Under the pieces are notes generated by a model. The model ran no database searches and had not been told where the DNA came from. It saw only the letters and a program-made list of their open reading frames with translations. Below, piece after piece: positions 1,581 to 37,685 of a DNA stretch of 38,157 nucleotides. This stretch comes from Chiloscyllium plagiosum. Lineage: Eukaryota. Both the position numbers and the translations under genes were made by a program. The stretch spans positions 10,185,358 to 10,223,514 of the forward strand of contig NC_057753.1 of assembly GCF_004010195.1 (NCBI RefSeq), in the 5' to 3' direction. How positions within the stretch are numbered: position 1 is the first letter of the stretch; each line of letters begins with the position of its first letter.

Positions 1581-1815
1581 GGCCAAAGCTTCAGCTGTTC
1601 ACAAATGCATGTACAGCCCCTCCCTGCCGTGAATTCCTCTTTCCAGGCCGTATAATTGTTACAGGCTCCACACTCAATGCGCTGCCACAGTAGCGTCTCT
1701 CATCCAGCTCCACTGATGCTGAAAATGTACCAAAGAATTTTGCTCCTTCTCACAGAATCGTAGTCAAAAATCGTTACAGTCCCAATGGATTGATTGACTG
1801 TCTGTCATTGACATG

Positions 1816-1934
1816 AAAATGAGGACTGCAGACGCTGGAGTGTCAGTCAAAATGTGTGGTGCTGGAAATACACAGCAGGTCAGGCAGCATCCAAGGAGCA
1901 GGAGAGTTGCTGTTTCGGGCATAAGCCCTTCATC
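1816..1934 (-). mobile_element. Penelope pLTR fragment in the predicted 5' UTR of ZNF copy 1
   Basis: Minus strand GATGAAGGGCTTATGCCCGAAAC...CTGCAGTCCTCATTTT, at the same position as in copies 3 and 4. Predicted splice acceptor TTTTTTCCAG at 1976-1975. Confidence 0.8.
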
Positions 1935-8894: not shown

Positions 8895-9024
8895 ATTCCT
8901 GATGAAGGGCTCGTGCCTGAAACGTCGAACCTCCTGCTTCTCAGATGCTGTCTGAACCTGCTGTGCTTTTCCAGCTCTACACTTTTCGACTCTGATCTCC
9001 AGCATGTGCAGTCCTCACTTTCTT
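8895..9024 (+). mobile_element. Penelope pLTR fragment (family A) in intron 1 of ZNF copy 1, antisense to the host gene
   Basis: ATTCCTGATGAAGGGC...TCCAGCATGTGCAGTCCTCACTTTC. A paralogous insertion is at 15911-16045. Confidence 0.8.
8896..8929 (+). ncRNA. Minimal type I hammerhead ribozyme motif
   Basis: UUC-CUGAUGA-A-GGGC-UCGU-GCCU-GAAA-C-GUC-GAA: 3-bp stem I, 4-bp stem II with one G.U pair, ACGU palindromic stem III, GUC triplet. Confidence 0.65.
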
Positions 9025-9272: not shown

Positions 9273-9570
9273 AGATGTTGGACAGAAGAAGAAAGTTGCA
9301 GTCTGGGGTGAAGCTCAATCTTTCTTCAGAGAGGAACAACAGCAGGAGCAGCTTCAGAAGCTCATGGTCAAACTTCCGTATTCAGACAATAGCAAGGCTC
9401 TGATTGACAAAAGAACCAGGCTCCTTCCGGTCATCCCGAACTCCCCATTGGCCCATCAAAAGAAGGTCGCGGTCCATAATTGCGGACAACATGGGGCATG
9501 CGCAGTTCTTGTTGACACCCGCTGAACATGCGTAATATTTACTGACACCGAGGAGTATGCGCAGTGTGGT
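9273..9570 (-). promoter_or_regulatory. Promoter and non-coding exon 1 of ZNF copy 1
   Basis: Inverted paralogue of 15355-15650. NRF1-like GCATGCGCA 9496-9504, CCAAT 9447-9451, ETS CGGAAG 9424-9430 and 9372-9378, donor CATCT/GTGAGT at 9272. Confidence 0.7.
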
Positions 9571-9894: not shown

Positions 9895-10575
9895 TGGTGG
9901 GAAACTTGGAAGGGTTCAAAAACGATTTATAAATATGATTTGGAGATGCGGTGTTGGACTGGGGTGTACAAAGTTAAAAATCACACAACGCCAGGTTATA
10001 GTCCAACAGGTTTAATTGGAAGCACACTAGCTTTCGGAGCGACACTCCTTCATCCGGTGATCACCGGATGAAGGAGCGTCGCTCCGAAAGCTAGTGTGCT
10101 TCCAATTAAACCTGTTGGACTATAACCTGGTGTTGTGTGATTTTTATATTTATAAATATGTTGCAAGGGTTGGAGGGGTTCAGCTGCAGGGAGAAGCTGA
10201 ATAGGCTGGGGCTGTTTTCCATGTAGCATTGGATGCTGAGGGTTTATAAAACCTTATAGAGATTTATAAAATCATGAGGGGCATTGATAGGTTAAATACA
10301 CAAGGTCTTTTCGCTGGGGCGGGGGAGTCCAGAACTAGAGGGCATTCATTTTGGGAGAGAGGGAAAAAGATATAAAAAGGACCTAAGGGGCAAATTTTTC
10401 ACGTAAAGGGTGGTGCATGTATTGAATTAGCTGCCAGAAGAAGTGGTGGAGGCTGGTACAATTACAAAATTTAAAAGGCATTTGGTTGGGTATATGGGCC
10501 AAGATTAATTTAGGATACCTGGTCAGCATGGACCGACAGGTTTGTTTCCATACTTTACAACTCTATGGTTCTATT
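9895..10575 (+). mobile_element. CR1/HER1 3' fragment interrupted by a hairpin element
   Basis: GAAACTTGGAAGGGTTCAAAAACGATTT..ATGTTGC..GGGTTGGAGG (KLERVQKRF..ML.GL) running through to the tail CTCTATGGTTCTAT. Confidence 0.8.
9938..10147. mobile_element. Penelope pLTR-derived palindromic insertion (family B) with back-to-back hammerhead motifs
   Basis: 86-bp arms at 9975-10060 and 10061-10146 with no spacer and 2 mismatches. 13-bp TSD ATTTATAAATATG at 9925-9937 and 10148-10160. Confidence 0.9.
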
Positions 10576-10895: not shown

Positions 10896-11369
10896 AAGAG
10901 TAGCATGGAACTGAGCAGCATTTAAGGGATTAGCACATTGATATAAAAAGTACATATATGTTGCTTTATTTTTGTGTATATCTAATATTATTTGCTGTTG
11001 TAAAAGTTTAATGGCTAATATGTTTCACCTTCTAATAACATTCTATACTTCTTGTCATCTTTTTCATTAATAGGATAGAAGGAAGTCATTCAGCAACTTA
11101 AATGGCTTTCTTTTCTCAAGCGGCCTTGATATTTCATTTTCATGTCCTTGATTCAGCTCCATTTGCAGCATCTTTGACAGCATCTTGTTCCAGGTCATCG
11201 TGTATGGAGGAAAGCTTCACTGAAGTGATTCTTAAGGCTGGCTGCATGACAGTTTTCAGGTTTTGGTGCCCTGGATAACATGTGATCAGCAGGCATCTGG
11301 CAGTTTGCAGGAATTTGGTGCCTATGCTATGGTCATTTAACAGTACTTATTTTGTTAATTTTTCTGCAG

Positions 11370-12158
11370 GATATCAAGAGGAAGACATGCAGAAAGAAAT
11401 CTGAAACCAAGTGTAATATCAACTTCTGACAGAGCCACTTGACTTATTGGAACTTGAACATCAGCAGCCATTTAAATCAAGAAGCAATGTTTGTTTCTGT
11501 GTGCTCCAGAGATTTTGGACACTGGTGTGACAGGAAGAACATTGCGGAATAGATACCCAAGTAAGGGAGATTCAGGGCACTGACTGAAAAGCACTTGACC
11601 GAATTACTCAGCTTGGGGGATCAAAATCACACCACCAGAAACTGTGAACCTGCTCTGTTTGCAATTGCAGCTGGCCGGCAAACCCAGAGCAACACCAGGA
11701 GAACCCAAGCTCAAAAATGAAAAAAACAACTATGGAAACGTGGGGACACTAGGAAAAGATTCCCTTCGCTTTCGGCACTTAAAACCCACAGACGCTTTCA
11801 CAACGGGGAGAGGCTGTTCATCTGCTCTGTGTGCGTGTAGAGATTCATTGATTCTTCCACCCAACTGACGCACCAGGGGGTTCATACCAGAGAGAGGCTG
11901 TTCACTTGCCCCGAGTGCGGGAAAGGCTTCAGTCAGATGTGCAACCTGTGAATACTCCAGCGGGTCCACTCGGGGAAAGAGGGCATTCACAGCCCTGCAT
12001 ACGGGAAATGGTTTGCTCAGTTAGCTGCCCTGCTGATCCACCAACAGGTCCAAACTAAGGACTGACCATTCACTTGCTTTCAGTGTGGGAAAGGATTCAT
12101 TGACTCCTCCTACCTGCGCAAGCACTGGTGAGTTCATGTGCCATCACAGAGGGATTGA
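11370..12158 (+). pseudogene. Highly decayed C2H2 zinc-finger pseudogene, copy 2 (divergent subfamily, about 5 fingers)
   Basis: Acceptor TTTTTCTGCAG/G at 11369. Relic coding sequence from about 11717 includes [30 protein letters not shown] and VHVPSQRD-stop at 12158, with many stops and frameshifts. Confidence 0.8.
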
Positions 12159-12384: not shown

Positions 12385-15134
12385 AGCTTCAGATTGATAT
12401 GACAGGTCGGCACAACACCGAGGGCCGAAGGCCCTGTACTGCGCTGTAATAGACAATAGGTGCAGGAGTAGGCCATTCTGCCCTTCGAGCCAGCACCACC
12501 ATTCATTTTGATTATGGCTGTTTCTGCCTTATCCCCATAACCCCTGATTCCACTATCCTTAAGAGCGCTATCCAACTCTTTCTTGCAAGTATCCACAGCC
12601 TTCTGGGGCAGAGCATTCCATACACCCACCACTCTCTGGGTGAAGAAGTTTCTCCTCAACTCTGTTCTAAGTGGCCTACCCTTTATTTTTAAACTGTGTT
12701 CTCTGGTTCAGGACTCACCCATCAGCAGAAACATCCGTCCACTCACCGAGCCTGTCCAGGTCACCCTGTATTCTCCTAACATCCTCCTCACATTTCACCC
12801 TGCCACCAGCTTTGTGTCATCAGCAAATTTGCTAATATTACTTTTAATACCCTCATCCAAACCATTAATGTACATTGTAAAAAGCTGCGGTCCCAGCACT
12901 GATCCCTGCTGCACACCACTTGTCACCACCTGCCATTCGAAAAGGGAGCTGTTTGTCACTACTCTGTTTCCTGTCAGCCAACCAATTTTCAATCCATGTC
13001 AGTATTTTGCCCTTAATACCATGTGCTCTAATTTTGCTCACTAACCTCCTACGTGGGACTTTATCAAAGGCTTTCTGAAAGTCCAGGTATACTACATCCA
13101 CTGGATCTCCCTTGTCCATCTTCAGAGTTACATCCTCAAAAAAGTCCAGATTAGTCAAGCATGATTTCCCCTTCATAAATGCATGCTGACTCTGACCTAT
13201 CCTGTTACTACTATCCAGATGTGTTGTAATTTCGTCCTTTATAATGGACTCCAGCATTTTTCCCACCACTGAGGTCAGACTAACTGGTCTATAATTCTCT
13301 GTTTTCTCTCTCCCTCCTTTCTTAAAAAGTGGGACAACATTAGCCACTCTCCAATCCACAGGAACTGATCCTGAATCTATAGAACATTGGTAAATGATCA
13401 CCAATGCATCCACAATTTCTAGAGCCACCTCCTTCAGTACCCTGGGATGTAGACCATCAGGTCCTGTGGACTTATCAGCCTTCAGACCCAACAGTCTCTC
13501 CAACACCATTTCCTGCCTAATATAAATTCCCTTCGGTTCAGGTCCTTCAGCCACTATTACATCTGGGAGATTGCTTGTGAACTCCCCAGTGAAAACAGAT
13601 CTAAAGTCCCAACTCAACTCTTCTGCCATTTCTTTGTTCCTTGTAATAAATTCACCCGTTTCAGTTTTCAAGGGCCCAATTTTAGTCTTAACCATTTTTT
13701 TTCTTTTCACATACCTAAAAAAGCCTTTGCTATCCTCCTTTATATTTTTGGCCAGTTTACCTTCGTACCTTATTTTTTCTTTGCGTATTTCCTTTTTTGT
13801 TATCCTCTGTTGTTCTTTAAATGCTTCCCAATCCGCCGATTTCCCACTCATCTTTGCTATGTGATACGTTTTCCCTTTTGTCTTTATATGGTCCTTAACT
13901 TCCCTCATCAGAGCCACAGCCACCCCTGCCTCCCCTTAGGATCTTTCTTCCTTTTTGGAATGAACTGATCCTGCATTTTCTCCATTATACCCAGAAATAC
14001 CTGCCATTGTTGCCATCCCTGCTAGGATATCACACCATTGAACTTTGGCCAGCTCCTCCCTCGTAGCTCCATAGTTCCCCTTATTCAACTGAAATATTGT
14101 CACTTCCAATTCTACCCTCTCCCTTTCAAACTGCAGATTAAAGCTTATTGTATTGTGGTCACTACCTCCTAATGGCTCCTTTACTTTGAGGTCCCTGATC
14201 AAATCCAGTTCGTTGCACAACACCAGATCCAGAATTGCTTTCTCCCTGGTAGGCTCCAGCACCAGCTGTTTTAAGAATCCATCTCGGAGGCACTCCACAA
14301 ACTCCTTTTCTTCGGGTTCTGTACCATCCTGATTCTCCCAGTCTACCTGCATGTTGAAATCCCCCACAACTACTGTAGTAATATCTTTGCAACAGGCCAA
14401 TTTCAGCTCCTTATTCAACTTACACACTACATCCAGGCTACTGTTTAGCAGCCTGTAGATAACTCCCATTAGGGTCTTTCTACCCTTAGAATTTCTCAGC
14501 TCTATCCATATTGACTCTACGTCCCCTGATTCTAGGTCCCCCTGCACAAGGGACTGAATATCATTCCTTACCAACAGGGCCACACCACTCCCTCTGCCAG
14601 TCAGTCTGTCCTTACGATAGCACGTATAGCCTTGAATACTCATTTCCCAGGATAACCCCACAACATCGTAACTGCCAATTTCCAAATGAGCTTCAAGCTC
14701 ATCCACCTTATTTCTAATGCTTCGTGCATTCATATGCAATATTTTTAATTTGTTACTCCCCTCACCCTTCCTATCAATCCCTATTTCACTTGACCTTACG
14801 GCATGATCCTTTTTTGAGTTTTCTGCTCCACTGATTCCTTTGTCTTTCTTGACTTTTCTTGTTCTACCTTCCCCTTAACTTCGTTCTTAAACTTCCAGTT
14901 TGTCCCCTCCCCCGCTATTTAGTTTAAACGCAGCTGGGTTGCAGTGGCAAACCTACCTGAAGGTAGGCAGAATAGACCTACTTAAATAACCTTCCCAACA
15001 GCCTCTGCGCTCCGACGTCACTTCCGCCCAGCTCCCGCCGCTCTCTGCTGCAAGGTAAATATCGCTCACCCACCTTCCCAACAGCCTCTGCGCTCCGACG
15101 TCACTTCCGCCCAGCTCCCGCCGCTCTCTGCTGC
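12385..15134 (-). mobile_element. CR1-clade LINE with 5' UTR monomers, EN and RT; lacks most of ORF1 and the C-terminal part of ORF2
   Basis: EN MNARSIRNK..VVVGDFN..SDHN (13936-14739). RT DKSTGPDGLHP, NYRPVSLTS, KSCLTNL, YLDFQKAFDKV (12865-13923) and QGSVLGP..FADDTKL (12795-12992). Tail at about 12450-12730. Confidence 0.92.
14989..15134. repeat. Identical 63-bp direct repeat (period 83) at the CR1 5' end containing an ETS-CRE motif
   Basis: ACCTTCCCAACAGCCTCTGCGCTCCGACGTCACTTCCGCCCAGCTCCCGCCGCTCTCTGCTGC at 14989-15051 and 15072-15134. Confidence 0.9.
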
Positions 15135-15354
15135 TGTCATGTTCTGTGACTCCAGACCGCGGCGGTGAGTTTGACTCTTGACAGTCCCCTCTCCCGCCGG
15201 GCAATAAATGCTGCTCTAACCAGTGACGCCCTAATCCCACAGAGTCATGGGGTTGTACAGCACTGAAACAGATCCTTCGGTCCAACTCGTCCGTACTGAC
15301 CAGAACTCCTAACCCAATTAGCTAAGATTTGGCCGCGTAAAATCTCCAAGGGGC

Positions 15355-15650
15355 TTACTACGCATGCTCCTCGGTGTCAGCAAGCACTGCGCATGTTCAT
15401 TAGTGTTGGCAACTTAGCGCGCATGCGTATCTCTCGACGCGAAAGCGCCGCGCGACTTTCTTTTGATGGACCAATGGAGAATCCTGGAGGACCGGAAGGA
15501 GTCTGGTCCTCCTGCCAATTAGAGCCCCGCTATTGTCTAAATGCGGAAGTTGGACCATGAGGTTCTGCACTTGTTACTGTTGTACCTCTCTCTCCGAATG
15601 AAGATTGAGCTTTACCCCAGACTGCAACTTCCTTCCTCTATCCAACATTT
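15355..15650 (+). promoter_or_regulatory. Promoter and non-coding exon 1 of intact ZNF copy 3
   Basis: CpG-rich. Three NRF1-like CGCATG sites (best GCGCGCATGCGT 15417-15428), CCAAT at 15471 and 15515, ETS CCGGAAG 15492 and GCGGAAGT 15543, donor CATTT/GTGAGT at 15651. Confidence 0.72.
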
Positions 15651-15910
15651 GTGAGTACAGCACACTCTTTTCTCACCCCTTTTTCATTCTGGGCTTTAGT
15701 TGTTTATTTGCAGCAACTGCATGGAAAGGTAGTGAATCCAGGGAGGGGACAGACTCTGGAAAATTTGGTACAGGTCAGTGTCTCAATCGGCAAACACGTG
15801 CCAAATGCAGCACCACAATGAGATGGTTTGTGTGAATGAATACCCTTTGCTGTGGAAAAAAAAGCAGAAAGGCTTTTTTAATTAATTTAAATAGTGTTAT
15901 ATTGTCATGT

Positions 15911-16045
15911 GGAGAAAGTGGGAACTGCAAATACTGGAGATCAGAGCAGAAAAATGTGACGCTGCATTGCACAGTTGGTCAGGCAGCATCCGAGGAGCAG
16001 GAGAAACGACATTTCAGGCATAAGCAAGCCCTTCTTCATTCCAGG
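15911..16045 (-). mobile_element. Penelope pLTR fragment (family A) in intron 1 of ZNF copy 3, antisense to the host gene
   Basis: GGAGAAAGTGGGAACTGC..GGTCAGGCAGCATCCGAGGAGCAGGAG..AGCCCTTCTTCA, with the same flank as 8895-9024. Confidence 0.75.
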
Positions 16046-16632: not shown

Positions 16633-16830
16633 TGGCTTGCCACTAACATTTGCCATGTGTGTTTATATTTAGTTTCTCTCTGGTTGTCGGTGTCAATATT
16701 TTGAGGTCTCATTTCAACTATCCCTCCCCATCCCCGGTCCAACCTCCCTATCCCAGATTGACAGCTATGACTTTTGTAATCTCTTTTTAGAGTATTTGAA
16801 CATCTGAAGACGGAAGTTTCAAAATAAACA

Positions 16831-16950
16831 GATGAAGGGCTTATGCCTGAAACGTTGACTCTCATGCTCCTTGGATGCTGCGTGACCCGCTGAGCTTTTC
16901 CAGTGCCACACTCTCGAATCTGACTCTCCAGCATCTGCAGTCCTCACTTT
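16831..16950 (+). mobile_element. Penelope pLTR fragment in the predicted 5' UTR of ZNF copy 3 (disarmed hammerhead)
   Basis: GATGAAGGGCTTATGCCTGAAACGTTG...TCCAGCATCTGCAGTCCTCACTTT, 40 nt after the acceptor CTCTTTTTAG at 16790. Confidence 0.82.
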
Positions 16951-17196
16951 CACATCAATGTCTGACAGTCACTCAATGCATCGGGATTGCAACAAGTTTC
17001 GACTGTGATTCTGTGAGAAGGAGCAAAGCTTTTTTTTTTCTTTTTTCAGTCCATTTTTGGCATTTATGGGACTGGATGAGAGACCCTCCTGTTGCAGCGC
17101 ACTGAGTGTGGAGTCTGAAACAGTTATACGGCTTGGGAAGAGGAATCACAGTGGTGAAGGGGCTGTACACGTTTGTGTACAGCTGAAGCTTTGGCC

Positions 17197-17868
17197 ATGG
17201 AGAAACGTGAGAAATCCCGCCCCGTGGAGAAACCGTGGAAGTGTGGCGACTGCGGGAAAGGCTTCCGTGTCCCGTCTGCCCTGGAGACTCATCGGCGCAG
17301 TCACACTGGAGAGAGACCCTTCAGCTGCGCGGAGTGCGGGAATGGCTTCACCCGCTTCTGCAACCTACTGGTCCACTGGCGGGTCCACACTGGGGAGAGG
17401 CCATTCAGCTGCCCTGAGTGTGGGAAGAGGTTCACTAGCTCCTCCCACCTGCTGGCCCACCAGCGGATCCACACAGGTGAGAGGCCCTTCCCCTGCCCCG
17501 AGTGCGGGAAGGCCTTCAGCGAATCCTCCACCCTCATAAAGCACCGGCGGGTCCACACAGGGGAGAGGCCCTTCAGCTGCCCTGAGTGTGAGAAGGCCTT
17601 CAGCTATTCCTCTGACCTACTGGCCCACCGGCGGATTCACACGGGCGAGAGGCCCTTCAGCTGCCCCGAGTGCGGGAAAGGCTTTACCCAGTCCTCTGCC
17701 CTGCTGGGACACCGGCGTGTCCACACTGGGGAGAGGCCGTTCGCCTGCCTTGAGTGCGGGCGGAGGTTCACGGTGTCCTGCAACTTGCGGAAGCACCAGC
17801 GGGGGCACCAGCGTTCTCAACAATTGGATTCTGCTGGTGACGCTGCTGTGGATCACCCCCAGGACTGA
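17197..17868 (+). CDS. Intact tandem C2H2 zinc-finger protein, 223 aa, 7 fingers, no effector domain
   Basis: Kozak GCCATGG. Seven CxxC..HxxxH units with all zinc ligands intact, joined by TGERP linkers; ends DHPQD-stop. Predicted exon 1, intron and acceptor lie upstream. Confidence 0.9.
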
Positions 17869-18262: not shown

Positions 18263-18472
18263 GAAGATGTCAGAAGTCACATGCCACCAGGTTACAGTCC
18301 ACAGTTTAGTTGAAATCCCAAGCTTAAGGAGCATTGTTCCTTCATCACTTCACCTGAGGAAGGAGCAGCGCTCTGAAAGCTCGTGAGTTCAAATAGACCT
18401 GTTGGACTCTCACCTGGTGCCGTGTGACTTCTGACCTTGATCCAGCCCGATCCAACACCAACACCTCTGCAT
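18263..18472. mobile_element. Penelope pLTR-derived hairpin (family B variant)
   Basis: Arms GTCAGAAGTCACA..CACCAGG..AGTCC / GGACT..CCTGGTG..TGTGACTTCTGAC. Candidate 7-bp TSD CAGAGTT at 18256-18262 and 18473-18479. Confidence 0.78.
18350..18386 (+). ncRNA. Minimal type I hammerhead ribozyme motif
   Basis: UCAC-CUGAGGA-A-GGAGC-AGC-GCUCU-GAAA-G-CUC-GUGA: 4-bp stem I, 5-bp stem II, AGCU palindromic stem III, CUC triplet. Confidence 0.68.
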
Positions 18473-18479
18473 CAGAGTT

Positions 18480-19110
18480 ATAGAGTTATAGAGTCATAGA
18501 GATGTACAGCATGGAAACAGACCCTTTGGTCCAACCCGTCCATGCCGACCAGACATCCCAACCCAATCTAGTCCCACCTGCCAGCACCCGGCCCATATCC
18601 CTCCAAACCCTTCCTATTCATATACCCATCCAAATGCCTCTTAAATGTTGCAATTGTATCAGCCTCCTCCACATCCTCTGGCAGCTCATTCCATACACGT
18701 ACCACCCTCTGCTTGAAAACGTTGCCCCTTAGGTCTCTTTTATATCTTTCCCCTCTCACACTAAACCTATGCCCTCTAGTTCTGGACTCCCTGACTTTGC
18801 CCATTTATCCTATCCATGCCCCTCATAATTTTGTCAACCTCTATAAGATTACCCCTCAGCCTCCGACACTCCAGGGAAAACAGCCCCAGCCTGTTCAGCC
18901 TCTCCCTGTAGCTCAAATCCTCCAACCCTGGCAACATCCTTGTAAATCTTTTCTGAACCCTTTCGAGTTTCACAACATCTTTCTGATAGGAAGGAGAGTA
19001 GAATTGCATGCAATATTCTAACAGTGGCCTAACCAATGTCCTGTACAGCTGCAAAATGACCTCCCAACTCTTGTACTTAGTACTCTGACCAATAAAGGAA
19101 AGTATATGGA
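18480..19110 (-). mobile_element. Young CR1/HER1 3' fragment
   Basis: LYRTLVRPLLEYC..KLERVQKRFTRMLPGL and tail. The tail is near-identical to 29789-30118 and 37972-38157. Confidence 0.88.
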
Positions 19111-19794
19111 TATTTTTCAGCATGATTTAGTGAGATGCTCACCTGGAAACTCAAAACTGTCGGAGCAACAAAGAGACGCGGGTCATAGAGTCCTACGGTG
19201 TGGAGACAGGCCCTTTGACCCAAACCGGTCCATGCCGACCAAAACATCCATCAACACTAACCCCATTTCCCTGCACTTGGCCCGTATCCTACTAAACCTT
19301 TCCTCTCCATGTATTTGTCCAAAAGCCTTTTAAATGTTGTTAATGTACCTGCCTCAATGTACTGGCAGCTCATTCCATACGAATACCATACACGGTGTTT
19401 AAAAAAAGTTACCCCTCATGTTCCCTGTTATTCTTTCCACTCTAACCTTAAACTGATGTCCTCTCGTCCTCAATTCCCCAACTCCAGGAAAAAGACTGAG
19501 TGCACACACACTATCCATGCCTCTCATGATCTTGGATACTTCTGTAAGGTCCCCCTCAGTCCCGTATGCTCTATAGAAAAGTCCTAACTTGTCGAACCTC
19601 TCCCTATAACTCAGACCCTTGAGTCCTGGCAATATGCTTGTAAATTTCTTCTGCACTCTTTCCAATTTAATACCATCCCTGTTATAGCAAGGTGACCAAA
19701 ACTGAACACAATACTCCACGTGTGGCCTCACCAACGTCCTTGAAACTGCAACGTAACTTCCCGACTGTTATACTCAGTGCCCTGACTGATGAAG

Positions 19795-20015
19795 CTGAAA
19801 ATGTGTTGCTGGAACAGCGCAGCAGGTCAGGCAGCATCAAGGGAACAGGAGAATCGACGTTTCGGGCATAAGCCCTTGTTCAGGATTCCTGAAGAAGGGC
19901 TTATGCCCGAAACGTCGAATCTCCTGTTCTCTGGATGCTGCCTGACCTGCTGCACTGTTCCAGCAACACATTTTCAGCTCTGATCTCCAGCATCTGCAGA
20001 CCTCACTTTCTCCCC
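19795..20015. mobile_element. Penelope pLTR-derived palindromic insertion (family A) with back-to-back hammerhead motifs
   Basis: Arms of about 93 bp centred near 19886, plus a 3' tail ending CCTCACTTTCTCC. 16-bp TSD GCCCTGACTGATGAAG at 19779-19794 and 20016-20031. Confidence 0.9.
19884..19921 (+). ncRNA. Minimal type I hammerhead ribozyme motif, best-preserved copy
   Basis: GAUUC-CUGAAGA-A-GGGC-UUAU-GCCC-GAAA-C-GUC-GAAUC: 5-bp stem I, perfect stem II, ACGU stem III, GUC triplet at 19914-19916. Confidence 0.78.
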
Positions 20016-22414: not shown

Positions 22415-22771
22415 GAGCTAAAAATCACACAACAGCAGGTTATAATCCAACAGGTTTAATTGGAAGCACACTAGCTTTCGGAGCAACGGTCCTTCATCAG
22501 GTGATTGTGGAGGGCTCGATCGTAACCAGGCATGGTACATTGGGGAAACCGAGCAAAGGCTACGACAACGGATGAATGGGCACCGCACAACAATCAACAG
22601 ACAGCAGGGTTCCCTCCCAGTTGGGGAACACTTCAGTGGTCCAGGACATTTGACCTCGAACCTTCGGGTGACCATCCTCCAAGGTGGACTTCGGGACAGG
22701 CAGCAGAGGAAAGTGGCCGAACAGAGGCTGATAACTAAGTTCGGTACCCATAGGGAGGGCCTCAACCAGGA
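22415..22771 (+). mobile_element. Penelope-like element (family B): inverted pLTR joined to the C-terminal part of the GIY-YIG endonuclease; runs into the gap
   Basis: YIGETEQRLRQRMNGHR..VGEHFS..EQRLITKFGT..GLN in frame from 22536. Segment 22415-22505 matches the arms of 9938-10147. Confidence 0.85.
22469..22503 (-). ncRNA. Minimal type I hammerhead ribozyme motif
   Basis: CAC-CUGAUGA-A-GGACC-GUU-GCUCC-GAAA-G-CUA-GUG. Core intact, with one C-C mismatch in stem II. Confidence 0.68.
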
Positions 22772-24261: not shown

Positions 24262-24806
24262 ATTTATTTATATGTTCACTGCTCTCTATGTGGTCTCTGC
24301 CACATTGGGGAGACTGGATACCATCTTGCAGAACAGTTCAGGGAACAGCTCTGGGACACCAAAACTAAACAACCCCACTGCCCTGTGACTGAACACTTTA
24401 ACTCCCACTCTGTCAAGGACATGCAAGTCCTGGGCCGCCTCCCCCTCCAACTCTAGCTATCTGACGCTTGTAGGAAGAACACTTCATCTTCCACCTTGGG
24501 ACCAACCAACTTCATGGGATCAATGTAGATTTCACCAGTTTCCTTATTTCCTCCCACTCCCACACCACACACCTTGTCCCAGATCCAACCTTCTAATTCT
24601 GCATCGGCCTCTTGAGCTGTCCTACCTGTCCATCTTGCTTACCTATCCATCTTGCTTCCCACCTATTCGCTCCACCCTCCTGTCTTACCTATCATGATCA
24701 AGTCCCACCTCCATCTACCTATTTCATTCACACCTGTCCCCCCATCCCCAATTATCTCTCAGCCCCCTTGGACCACCCCTCATTTCTGATGAAGAACTTA
24801 TGCTCT
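24262..24806 (+). mobile_element. Degenerate Penelope 3' fragment (GIY-YIG, 3' UTR, hammerhead relic)
   Basis: Reads CSLCGLCHIGETG..AEQFREQL..VTEHFN. Similar to 32812-33391 and ends CTGATGAAG at 24786. Confidence 0.75.
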
Positions 24807-27114: not shown

Positions 27115-28752
27115 TGAAAAATGTTGTGCTGGAAAAACACAGCTGACCAGGCAGCATCAGAGGAGCAGGAGAATCGACATTTTGGGTATAAGCCCTTCTT
27201 AGGAATCTTTTAACGGGTGGTGCGGGGTTGTGGGACTATGAGGTTGGAGGCAGTGGATGGGAGATCCCCTGAGGTGATGAGGTTATGGATGGTCTGGGAG
27301 ATGATGGTTTGGTGGGAGGTGGGGTCATGGTCAAGGGGGCAGTAGGAGGAGGTGTCCGCGAGTTGGCGTCTAGCTTCAGCGGTGTAAAGATCGGTGCGCC
27401 AAACTACCACTGCACCTCCCTTGTCTGCCAGTTTGATGGTGAGGTTGGGGTTGGAGCAGAGGGAGTGGAGGGCTGCGTGTTGTGAGGGTGAGAGTTTGGA
27501 GTGGGTGAGAGGGGTGCACAGGTTGAGGCGGTCAATGTCGCGGCGACAGTTGAATATGAAGAGATTGAGGGCGGGTAAGAGGCCAGCACGGGGCGTCCAG
27601 GTGGATGGGGTGTGTTGGAGGCGGGAGAAGGGGTCGTCAGAGGGTGGGCAGGAGTCCTGGTTGAAGAAATAGGCGCGGAGGTGAAGGCAGCGGAAGAAAT
27701 GCTCTGTCTAGCCGCGTGTCGAACTCATTGATCTGGGAGCATAGGGGGATGAAGGTGAGGCCTCTGCTGAGGACTGATCATTCATCCTTAGAGAGGGGGA
27801 GGTCTGGAGGGATGGTGAAAACACGGCAGGGCTGGGAGTTAGTCGTGGGGGCGGCGTGGCGTACAGCGTGGTCCTTGAGCAGGTGAGTGACGTCACTGGG
27901 GGCGGAAGTTGCTGCGGCAACAGCAACTCCGGGGGCAGAAGTGGCACATCGGGCAGAAACGGCGCTGGTCCTGGTGGCCGTGTATCTGTTGGCAATGGTC
28001 TTCCTGGCGATCGTGGAGGCTGCATGGTCGGTGGTGGCTGTTGTCTGTGCGGCACTGGGGGCGGAAGTGATGTCACCGTTTGCCGCGGCGATGGTGGCTG
28101 CAACGGCCAAGTGGGCAATGGCGCCTGAGCGGCTCCGGAGGTCGCGAGAAGGTTCAGGAACGGTCGAGGAATTCGGAGTGTGGGGGTGAGTACGTGAAAG
28201 TGTTTTGTACTTACTTTCTTTGATGTTTGATATGGCTCGGAAAAAGCATTTGTTCAGTGTATGAATTCTTCTGAGGTTGAAGAACAGCAGAGGTCCTTTG
28301 CAGGTCTGGGAGGCTGTTGTCCTGAGCTTGGGCAGGGCTGACTGCAGGGAGTGTAGGTGGCGGCGCATGGCTGTGAGCGTGGAACGGAGGATCCGGAGGG
28401 AGGTCTGTTGCTGGAGGCTTCGGGTTTGTTGCAGGTACTGGTTGTCCTGGTTGAGTCCAAATTGTGTTGGTCTGAACGTAGTCCGGAGTCCATGCGGGGT
28501 CAGTCGGTTCCGTAGGCAGGTGCTGAGGAAAGAGTTGTGGCTGTAGTAGCAAGTTTGTTTCAGGATGTGTCTGAAAGAGCTTCAGGGCAGAGGAGATTGG
28601 GGGTGCAGTGAGGGAGAGACTCAGAGAGATCATTGTAGAGGGATGAGGAGAGCTTCTTCAAGGTAGGCATCCTTGCAAGAGGATTCGCAGTAGGTTAAAA
28701 TCAACTAGGAGAAAGTGAGGATTGCAGATGCTGGAGACCAGAGTTGACAATG
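27115..28752 (-). mobile_element. Penelope-like retroelement (family A), internally deleted: pLTR part, 5' 1.5 kb of ORF, pLTR part
   Basis: ATG at 28670 after acceptor-like CACTTTCTCCTAG (28705). Motifs HNSFLSTCL..PHGL, PLSKDE.SVLSRGLTFIP, ADKGGAVVVW..Y..EARRQLAD..Y..LDHDP. Family A pLTR sequence at both ends. Confidence 0.88.
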
Positions 28753-31501: not shown

Positions 31502-31742
31502 GGCCGAAGCTTCAGCTGCACACAAATGTGTGTGCAGCCGCTGCCGTGAATTCCTCTTTCCAGGCCGTATAACTGTTAAAGGCTTCACACTCGGGGCGCT
31601 GCAAAGATAGGGTGTCATCTTGTCCCACTGATGCTGAAAATGTACTGAAACAGGGACCAAAAAGCTTGGCTCCTTCACACAGAATCATAGTCGAAAATTG
31701 TTGCGGTCCAGATGGGTTGATTGACCGTCAGACATTGACATG

Positions 31743-31857
31743 AAAGTGAGGACTGCAGACGCTGGAGAGTCAGAGTCAAAAGGTGCGACGCTGGAAAAGC
31801 ACAGTGGGTCAGGCAGCATCCGAGGAGCAGGAGAGTTTTGGGCATTAGCCCTTCATC
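31743..31857 (-). mobile_element. Penelope pLTR fragment in the predicted 5' UTR of ZNF copy 4
   Basis: Same junctions as 1816-1934 and 16831-16950. Acceptor CTTTGTACAG at 31899-31898. Confidence 0.82.
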
Positions 31858-32610: not shown

Positions 32611-33548
32611 GGGGCAGCACAGTGGCTCAGTGGTTAGCACTGTTGCCTCTCAGCAGCAGGGACCCGGGTTCAATTCCTGCCTTGAGTGACTGTCAGTGTG
32701 GAATTTGGACATTTTCCCTGTGTCTGCGTGGGTTTCCTCCAGGTGCTCTGGTTTCCTCTCACAATCCAAAAATGTGCAGGTTCGTTGAATTGGCCATGCT
32801 AAATTGCCCATTGTAAACCTCCACCCACACCACCTCCCTCACCTCCATCCAAGGCCCCAAAGGAGCCTTCCACATCCATCAAAGTTTTACCTGCACATCC
32901 ACCAATGTCATTTATTATATCCGTTGCTCCCGATGCGGTCTCCTCTACATTGTGGAACTGGATGCCGCCTAGCAGAGCGCTTTAAGGAACATCTCTGGGA
33001 CATCCGCACCAATCAGTCACACCGCTCTGTGGCCCAACATTTCAACTCCCCCTCCCACTCAGTCGAGGACATGGAGGTCCTGGGCCGCCTCCACTGCCGC
33101 TCCCTCACCACCCGAAGCCTGGATGAAGAAGGCCTCATCTTCCGCATTGGAACACTTCAACCCCAGGGCGTCAATATGGACTTTACCAGTTTCCTTACTT
33201 CCCCACCTCACCCCAGTTCCAAACTTCCAGCTCACCACTATCCCCATGACTTGTCCTACCTGCCTATCTTCCTTTCCACCTATCCATTCCACCCTCCTCT
33301 CTGACCTATCAACTTCATCCCCACCTCCATTCACCTATTGTCTACTCTAATCCAGAATCTGGTTTCCAGCATCTGCAGTCATTGTTTTTACCTAAATTGC
33401 CCATAGTATCCAGGGATGTGGAAGTTACGTGCATTAGTCTGGGATAAATGTAGAGTCGTGGAGGAATCGGTCTGGATGGGTTACTCATCAGAGGGTCAGT
33501 GTGGACTGTTGGGCCAAAGGGCCTGTTTCCACACTGTAGGGACTCTAA
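32611..33548 (+). mobile_element. HE1-type SINE split by a Penelope insertion
   Basis: A box TGGCTCAGTGG and B box GGTTCAATTCC. The body resumes at 33405. Confidence 0.85.
32812..33391 (+). mobile_element. 5'-truncated Penelope-like element (GIY-YIG endonuclease plus pLTR tail)
   Basis: FTCTSTNVIYYIRCSRCGLLYI / TGCRLAERFKEHL..VAQHFN..LQPQGVN. 13-bp TSD CTAAATTGCCCAT at 32799-32811 and 33392-33404. Confidence 0.9.
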
Positions 33549-36884: not shown

Positions 36885-37318
36885 GGCCAAAGCTTCAGCC
36901 GCACACAAACGTGTGCAACTCCTCTCCACTGTGAATTCCTCTTTCCAGGCTGTGTAACTGTTTCAGGCTCCACACTCAGTGCACTGCAACAGTAGGGCTT
37001 CTCATCCAGTCCCACTGATGCTGAAAACATACTCAAACAGGAACCAAAAGGCTTTGCTCCTTCTCACACAGACATAATTAAAAGTCATTGCCATTCCGAT
37101 GGACTGAGTGACTGTCAGACATTAACATGAAAGTGAGGAGTGCAGACGCTGACGGGGCTACTTCTGCATCGTGATGTCAAAAATGGGAAGAAGGTTCGCG
37201 GCGAGTCTGACAGTGGAGTCTGCGTTGTTCCTGCTCTGGACAGTCAGCTGCCTGGCCCATACTGTACCTTCGCTATCCTGAAGCAAAGGGCAGGAGAGTT
37301 GCAAATATCTCTTCCCTT

Positions 37319-37685
37319 CATAGAGTCCTTACCGTGTGGAAGCAGGCCACTCAGCACAACAAGTCCAACCCAACCCTCCGAACGGCAACACACCCAGACC
37401 CATTCCCCTACTCCCATTGCTCTACATTTACCCGTGACTAATGCACCTAACATAAACATCCCTGGGCACTATGGGACAATTTAGCATCGCCAAGACACCC
37501 CAACCTGCACATTCCTGGACACTATGGGTAATTAGGCACAGCCATTCCACCCTAACCTGCACATCCCTGGACACTATGGTTAATTTAGCATGGCCAACAT
37601 ACGAATAACCAGAACATCCTTGGGCATTGAGTAATTTAGCATGACCTGCGCATCGCTGGACAGTATGGGTAATTTAGCTCGGCTA
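37319..37685 (-). repeat. HE1 SINE 3' part with about 5 tandem copies of a roughly 52-bp internal unit
   Basis: Repeats of CCTAACCTGCACATCCCTGGACACTATGGGTAATTTAGCATGGCC-like sequence at 37446-37685. Confidence 0.8.

What the first reader, a model, noticed from the sequence alone, without database searches (positions are those of the whole stretch)
16791..16960. A disarmed hammerhead/Penelope cassette is fixed in the 5' UTR of the amplified ZNF subfamily, with an empty site in copy 2
Seen: the same roughly 120-bp pLTR piece sits 40 nt after the splice acceptor in copies 1 (1816-1934), 3 (16831-16950) and 4 (31743-31857), with a remnant in copy 5 (37130-37151), always sense to the gene. The junction gives CAGAUGA instead of CUGAUGA and removes stem I, so the ribozyme is predicted dead. 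The divergent copy 2 reads AAACCAAGTG-TAATATCAAC..CTGACAG (about 11404-11432) with no insertion. In copy 3 the cassette adds upstream ATGs (16832, 16843, 16864, 16875). Inference: one ancestral insertion predates the amplification. It may be exapted, for example for uORF control or for coupling ZNF mRNA to PLE-directed small RNAs in a transposon-sensing feedback loop.
Basis: partly seen in the sequence, partly recalled or inferred. Interest (0 to 1): 0.7.

Follow-up and report, generated by a model that had tools for sequence, protein, structure and literature searches.

The report
Transposon scrap riding shark zinc-finger leaders
A 120-base scrap of a very common shark jumping gene sits at one shared spot in the untranslated leader of several related zinc-finger genes and is present in their spliced RNA, most likely because it landed once and was copied along as a passenger rather than because it took on a job.

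Summary
A 121-nt piece of a Penelope-like element's terminal repeat (pLTR) lies 40 nt into exon 2 of ZNF copies 1, 3 and 4, with identical junctions and a shared 1-nt insertion. Copy 5 keeps 23 nt of it; the distant copy 2 has none. So one insertion preceded the amplification. RNA data show exon 1 spliced to 16791 with the cassette retained; none of 14 listed joints skips it whole.

Exaptation is not shown. A dead core is the norm: 7 of 9 non-ZNF copies lack it too, and single motifs of this class were reported inactive. A second, antisense copy of the element was co-duplicated in intron 1 of copies 1 and 3. The three shared uATGs come from the element and open frames of unconserved length, and copy 3's leader has 7 uATGs without the cassette. 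Only about 4-7% of the element's poly(A) read depth is ZNF-linked. Four of five copies are frameshifted.

One hint runs against neutrality: non-CpG substitution in the cassette is 0.5-0.7 times that of the flanks (p 0.007-0.22, depending on method). No small-RNA data were available. Verdict: likely a hitch-hiking, exonised transposon fragment.

The parts
16831..16951 (+). pLTR cassette in exon 2 leader of ZNF copy 3; 5'-truncated inside the hammerhead core
   Evidence: retained in a spliced contig (X1 record 4)
15530..15650 (+). Non-coding exon 1 of copy 3 (start approximate; donor GT at 15651), downstream of a CpG-rich promoter-like region at about 15340-15470
   Evidence: joint 15647->16791 in X1 and X19; homology to copy 1; donor located
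16791..17196 (+). Untranslated part of exon 2 of copy 3: 40-nt 5' flank, cassette, 245-nt 3' side
   Evidence: depth step at 16791 in 3 of 4 runs laid (the fourth had no reads laid)
17197..17868 (+). Only intact ZNF ORF in the window: 223 aa, 7 C2H2 fingers, no effector domain among the 25 of 37 Pfam hits shown
1815..1934 (-). Cassette in ZNF copy 1 (frameshifted gene); cleavage triplet lost
9273..9565 (-). Promoter-like region and exon 1 of copy 1, paralogous to 15357-15650
31742..31857 (-). Cassette in ZNF copy 4 (frameshifted gene); GAAA changed and 6-nt deletion; no exon 1 homolog found for it in the window
37129..37151 (-). 23-nt 3' remnant in copy 5; rest of cassette, 5' flank and acceptor replaced by unrelated sequence
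11370..11432 (+). Cassette-free homologous site in the distant, decayed copy 2
15911..16038 (-). Second copy of the same element, antisense in intron 1 of copy 3; co-duplicated with 8895-9023
   Evidence: shared 3' flank
8895..9023 (+). Paralogous intronic antisense element in copy 1; keeps a full core with a 3-bp stem I
19793..20015 (.). Head-to-head inverted pair of the element; the + copy (core at 19889) has a complete min-hammerhead with a 5-bp stem I
27118..28752 (-). Deleted Penelope-like element: element 3' end (28752-28708), ORF with DKG motif, then a hammerhead-bearing piece (27207-27118); places the cassette in the pLTR
24290..24803 (+). Decayed 3' end of a PLE (endonuclease-like by eye), pyrimidine tract, then the start of the hammerhead
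   Evidence: not detected by a library; element match weak (E 0.57)

Best explanation
A 121-nt fragment of an abundant shark Penelope-like element's terminal repeat sits at one shared site in the exon-2 leader of a zinc-finger subfamily and is present in spliced RNA; it most likely inserted once into the ancestral gene and was then multiplied as a near-neutral passenger by gene duplication. Shown: pLTR origin, shared junctions, a shared 1-nt insertion, retention after splicing, loss of the hammerhead core. Inferred: insertion by the element's own reverse transcriptase with 5' truncation; tolerance because a lone min-hammerhead would not cut the mRNA anyway and the leader already carried uATGs; later decay at about the rate of its surroundings.
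For: The element occupies 13 loci and 3.5% of the window; a rough 9% chance that any 0.4-kb leader receives one (9 independent events assumed). The same duplicated unit carries a second, antisense, intronic copy shared by copies 1 and 3. Only 2 of 9 non-ZNF copies keep the full core. Each ZNF copy has lost different further ribozyme residues. PMC4209133 (parts 1-2 of 4 read) found no cleavage by a single min-HHR. The three shared uATGs open frames of 8/17/3, 16/52/56 and 76/15/44 codons in copies 3/1/4; 7 of 11 uATGs in copy 3 and 5 of 8 in copy 1 lie outside the cassette. All-site substitution: cassette 28/356 against flanks 90/946, ratio 0.83, p=0.39; copy 1 vs 3: 15.1% against 19.8% over other non-coding parts, p=0.27. 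The pre-existing intron end and 5' flank are as slow (14/221) as the cassette. ZNF-flank depth is 4-7% of cassette depth in poly(A) reads. Copy 5 lost most of it; 4 of 5 copies are frameshifted. Precedent for co-duplicated TEs in mouse KZFP clusters: PMC11952569 (passages).
Against: Non-CpG sites change more slowly in the cassette: 11/98 against 57/236 variable columns, p=0.007 (this count drops the columns under copy 4's deletion, where copies 1 and 3 differ); 13/299 against 67/824, p=0.035, falling to p=0.22 when gap-adjacent columns are masked; copy 1 vs 3 alone p=0.10; exonic vs intronic element 12/107 against 19/100, p=0.12. Every point estimate lies on the side of constraint. No joint skipping the whole cassette appears among 14 joints in related sequences at 80% likeness, which fits retention by selection as well as descent. 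Only three whole copies were compared, two of them pseudogenes, so power is low.
Confidence: 0.7

Rival explanations
1. The cassette began as a passenger but is now a weakly constrained part of the leader: its three inherited uATGs or its stem-II hairpin would dampen ZNF translation, and removing it would raise output.
For: Non-CpG deficit, ratio 0.53-0.66. Three uATGs kept in 3 of 3 whole copies. ATG density 3.3 against 1.7 per 100 nt in the rest of copy 3's leader. Stem II still pairs in all three folds. Retained in spliced RNA.
Against: uORF lengths and frames are not conserved. The ATGs are part of the element itself. The leader has 7 other uATGs. The slow stretch includes the neighbouring non-TE intron end and flank. 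Folding z-scores of the three ZNF copies are 0.12, -0.29 and -0.93.
Confidence: 0.15
2. The cassette couples ZNF mRNAs to Penelope-directed small RNAs: being sense to the PLE transcript, it would be sliced by antisense piRNA/siRNA, so ZNF output would rise when PLE silencing weakens.
For: The cassette has the same orientation as the PLE ORF at 28752->27210. Element reads occur on both strands in poly(A) RNA, so antisense precursors are plausible. The cassette is retained in the subfamily's transcripts.
Against: No small-RNA data were available. About 93-96% of element depth comes from non-ZNF contexts, so ZNF leaders are a small share of possible targets. The copies are 14-20% from the majority of dispersed copies in one alignment, which would weaken pairing. 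Neither of the two papers returned by a targeted search (listing only) appears to describe such a loop.
Confidence: 0.07
3. The cassette mainly supplies alternative 3' splice acceptors (AG at 16903, 16931, 16940) that shorten the leader.
For: Pyrimidine-rich AG sites exist. In X19, depth 3' of the cassette (60-72) is about twice the depth 5' of it (33-38).
Against: The only exon-1 joint among the 15 of 156 joints shown goes to 16791, and depth steps up at 16791. The 3' excess also fits 5' fall-off or truncated paralogues such as copy 5.
Confidence: 0.05
4. The cassette helped drive the amplification, as a recombination seed or a retrotransposition handle.
For: It marks the amplified subfamily and is absent from distant copy 2.
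Against: Copies 1 and 3 share promoter, exon 1 and intron, so they arose by DNA duplication, not retrocopying. The shared homology does not end at the cassette.
Confidence: 0.03

Closest known systems
Minimal hammerheads (min-HHR) in pLTRs of metazoan Penelope-like elements (Cervera and De la Pena 2014, PMC4209133; parts 1-2 of 4 read)
   Same: The element family shows the core boxes, the extra base before stem II, the G-C pair opening stem II, the palindromic 15.2-16.2 positions and a 5-bp stem I in its best copy; most copies are single and broken.
   Different: The ZNF-borne copies have lost the 5' core box and stem I, so they are remnants and not ribozymes; they lie in a spliced host leader.
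TEs co-duplicated in young mouse KZFP clusters (PMC11952569; passages read)
   Same: An element inserted before segmental duplication is multiplied with the zinc-finger genes and keeps shared junctions.
   Different: Shark genes with no KRAB domain detected; a PLE rather than an ERV; the fragment is exonic in the 5' UTR.
Domesticated hammerheads in Clec2 3' UTRs and RECK/CTCL introns (as reviewed in PMC6155905; passages read)
   Same: A retroelement-type hammerhead sequence inside a host transcript.
   Different: Those are described as self-cleaving or highly conserved motifs; here the core is destroyed and decays differently in each copy.
PAc (Poseidon) PLE of Anolis (PMC11167929; parts 1-2 of 4 read)
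   Same: pLTR with a hammerhead; internal priming gives preferred element ends, as the similar 3' ends of copies here suggest.
   Different: In PAc the ORF starts in stem II and priming is 111-118 nt inside the ORF; here the dispersed copies end just before the apparent ORF.

Membership tests
PLE pLTR | Sequence abuts the 5' end of a PLE-type RT ORF | tested here: met
   The element's 3' end at 28752-28708 directly precedes an ORF whose fragment has a DKG motif; relatives at 81-85% in Chiloscyllium punctatum, two of which carry RVT_1. DKG is named as a diagnostic motif in PMC8557442 (passages).
PLE pLTR | C-terminal GIY-YIG endonuclease upstream of the repeat | tested here: inconclusive
   Pfam found nothing in 4 of 4 PLE-like fragments. 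A YIG motif is seen by eye at 22446. One RT homolog (P0130) matches both the RT fragment and 32972-33133 (E 2.5e-4).
PLE pLTR | 5'-truncated and inverted head-to-head copies | tested here: met
   Inverted pairs at 14-215 and 19793-20015; feature described in PMC8557442.
min-HHR (element family) | CUGANGA and GAAA boxes, stem II, palindromic 15.2-16.2, NUH triplet, helix I of 4-5 bp | tested here: met
   Complete in the copy at 19889, with a 3-bp stem I at 8899; 2 of 9 non-ZNF copies (0.24 matches expected by chance, 3 of 100 shuffles reach 2).
min-HHR (ZNF cassette) | Intact catalytic core and helix I | tested here: not met
   0 of 3 whole ZNF copies have CUGANGA; copy 1 also lost the triplet and copy 4 the GAAA box.
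min-HHR | Self-cleavage as a dimer | not testable with these tools
   Needs an in vitro cleavage assay.
Co-duplicated TE passenger in a ZNF cluster | Shared junctions and shared derived changes across paralogues | tested here: met
   Both junctions are shared by 3 of 3 whole copies; a 1-nt insertion is absent from the 5 dispersed copies covering that site.
Co-duplicated TE passenger in a ZNF cluster | Neutral rate of change | tested here: inconclusive
   All sites ratio 0.83, p=0.39; non-CpG ratio 0.53-0.66, p=0.035-0.22; p=0.007 in the cruder count.
Domesticated hammerhead (Clec2/RECK type) | Conserved catalytic core in a host transcript | tested here: not met
Exapted TE-derived UTR element | Inclusion in mature mRNA | tested here: met
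Exapted TE-derived UTR element | Measurable regulatory effect | not testable with these tools
   No reporter, ribosome-profiling or small-RNA data.

The most novel reading that the evidence does not exclude
A shark subfamily of effector-less zinc-finger genes has kept a dead Penelope pLTR fragment in its mRNA leader under selection, so that PLE-directed small RNAs or the fragment's uATGs set ZNF output: a built-in link between transposon activity and a candidate silencing-factor family.
Probability: 0.1. Interest if true: 0.75.

Novelty: new member of a known kind. Interest (0 to 1): 0.24.

Why it matters
As a passenger, the cassette is a useful marker. It defines a transcribed clade of shark ZNF paralogues and orders its expansion after the PLE insertion. 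With the co-duplicated intronic copy it offers a matched exonic-versus-intronic test of constraint on the same element. If constraint or small-RNA targeting were shown, it would link the piRNA and zinc-finger arms of transposon control through an mRNA leader. My searches returned no description of such a link, but the library lacks most subscription papers.

Tried and rejected
No whole genome is held for this window, so no genome-wide paralogue census was possible. Rfam found no hammerhead; its 6 matches are below gathering score and the best come from inverted repeats. The run search listed no holder on record as RNA; X19 and X20 came by species label, and X20 had 0 reads laid. A scan of metagenome contigs for the 5' junction gave 0 matches. 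A candidate target-site duplication was not favoured: the best score came with no bases trimmed for copies 3 and 4, and was tied for copy 1. Fourfold-site rates were uninformative (15 and 13 sites), and the copy 3 vs 5 codon comparison was out of register and was dropped. Copy 1's exon end was 8 nt off and was corrected. A PDB sequence search with a PLE homolog gave 0 hits. The ZNF homolog search returned generic arrays; the closest by identity among the 120 of 7447 listed included Carcharodon (68%) and Chiloscyllium (64%). Look-ups of earlier notes by place and by sequence were empty.

Full report
Observation. The window holds five C2H2 zinc-finger gene copies among dense repeats. Homologs point to a shark. 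Copies 3, 1 and 4 carry the same piece of about 120 nt, at 16831-16951 (+), 1934-1815 (-) and 31857-31742 (-), starting 40 nt after the exon-2 acceptor; copy 5 keeps its last 23 nt. With the cassette removed in silico, the three alleles align colinearly with copy 2 (61-69% identity, above all 300 shuffles each, narrowly for copies 1 and 4), and the cassette has no match there. The flanks taken singly mostly do not beat shuffles, so the empty site is likely but not resolved to the base.

What the piece is. It occurs at 13 loci, 3.5% of the window. Its 3' end directly precedes an ORF at 28752->27210 with a DKG motif. That ORF's relatives are 81-85% identical Chiloscyllium proteins, two with an RT domain. 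Head-to-head inverted pairs occur, as described for Penelope-like elements (PMC8557442, passages). Pfam did not detect a GIY-YIG domain in any of 4 fragments, so that part rests on a motif seen by eye and one weak protein link. The best copy (19889) has every min-hammerhead feature listed in PMC4209133. The cassette is therefore a pLTR fragment running from inside the hammerhead core to just before the PLE ORF.

One insertion, before amplification. Both junctions are shared, and the three copies share a 1-nt insertion absent from the dispersed copies. Copies 1 and 3 also share the promoter region, exon 1 and the start of intron 1, including a second, antisense copy of the same element. The unit was thus duplicated as DNA, and it carried at least two PLE pieces.

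It is in the RNA. A joint from exon 1 (15647) to 16791 appears in 2 contigs of X1 and 2 raw poly(A) reads of X19, but not in X15 or X10 (15 of 156 joints shown). One X1 contig carries 41 upstream letters and then 16791-16954 with one mismatch. Its three letters at the exon end differ from the window, so it is copy 3's counterpart or a close paralogue. At 80% likeness, depth steps up at 16791 in X19, X1 and X16; X20 had no reads laid. Position 16826, five bases before the junction, is covered by 34 X19 reads, and its family variant is seen in 33 X1 and 53 X16 contigs and in 22 contigs of a third organism label (X10). These are assembly fragments, not gene counts. None of the 14 joints listed skips the whole cassette; two single X1 contigs skip part of it. 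X1 is only guessed to be RNA and X16 is of unknown kind.

Is the disarming meaningful? None of the 3 ZNF copies has the core, but only 2 of 9 other copies do. A single min-HHR showed no cleavage in vitro (PMC4209133), and the Anolis PLE ribozyme needed the element's protein (PMC11167929). A lone copy would therefore probably have been harmless even if whole. The remaining ribozyme residues decayed differently in each ZNF copy.

uORFs. Three uATGs come with the element and are kept in all three copies, but open 8/17/3, 16/52/56 and 76/15/44 codons (copies 3/1/4). ATG 16864 is absent from copies 1 and 4. Seven of 11 uATGs in copy 3's modelled leader, and 5 of 8 in copy 1's, lie outside the cassette (exon 1 start approximate). 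A 74-codon frame through copy 4's cassette has no protein homologs.

Constraint. Over all sites the cassette changes at 0.83 of the flank rate (28/356 against 90/946, p=0.39). Between copies 1 and 3 it is 15.1% against 19.8% for other non-coding parts (p=0.27) and 20.7% for the intronic element (p=0.30). At non-CpG sites there is a deficit: p=0.007 in a three-way column count that loses the columns under copy 4's deletion, p=0.035 per copy, p=0.22 with gap-adjacent columns masked, and p=0.10 for copies 1 vs 3. The adjoining non-TE intron end and 5' flank are about as slow, so any effect may be regional. These tests are not independent, and two of the three copies are pseudogenes. Constraint is neither shown nor excluded.

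Small-RNA coupling. The cassette is sense to the PLE ORF and element RNA is present on both strands, so it could be a target. But ZNF-flank depth is only 4-7% of cassette depth in X19, and no small-RNA data were available.

Verdict. The most likely account (0.70) is an exonised pLTR fragment multiplied as a passenger, as described for TEs in mouse KZFP clusters (PMC11952569, passages). Rivals are a weakly constrained translational element (0.15), small-RNA coupling (0.07), alternative acceptors (0.05) and a driver of amplification (0.03). It is not a domesticated hammerhead of the Clec2/RECK kind (PMC6155905, passages). My searches returned no description of this insertion, but most subscription papers are outside the library. 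PMC10547256, PMC8455134 and bioRxiv 10.64898/2026.07.22.740005 were seen as passages only. No supplements were read; the min-HHR alignments in those of PMC4209133 could include shark families. Earlier notes of this scan agree on the element's identity but are unchecked leads. Interest 0.24.

Noticed in passing
window 15340-15470 and 9400-9565: CpG-rich promoter-like region with repeated GCGCATGC motifs (NRF1-like; label recalled), shared by copies 1 and 3. A second CpG-rich stretch with a 63-nt perfect tandem duplication (14989-15134) and a possible donor at 15166 lies just upstream and is covered by a near-identical X1 contig.
   Followed up: partly
window 17080-17196 and homologs: The leader just before the ATG reads like a decayed zinc finger or linker (seen in the predicted N-terminus of P0057), suggesting the present start codon is secondary.
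   Followed up: partly
window 16981/16986-17067: An 80-85-nt skip within the leader appears in X1 contigs (depth 556 and 35): a possible extra small intron in some paralogues.
   Followed up: no
window 37152-37330: Copy 5's remnant is joined to unrelated sequence that looks like a decayed promoter; no homolog elsewhere in the window.
   Followed up: partly
window 9964-10157 and 18274-18482: Long inverted-repeat elements (about 190 nt hairpins) of another repeat family; source of the sub-threshold plant miRNA hits.
   Followed up: no
window 12865-14874 (-): LINE remnant with endonuclease and RT Pfam domains, split over two frames.
   Followed up: no
window 11310-11720 versus the leaders of copies 1, 3, 4, 5: The non-TE leader stays alignable (about 60-65%) even to the very distant copy 2, so the host leader may be the more interesting conserved part.
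   Followed up: partly
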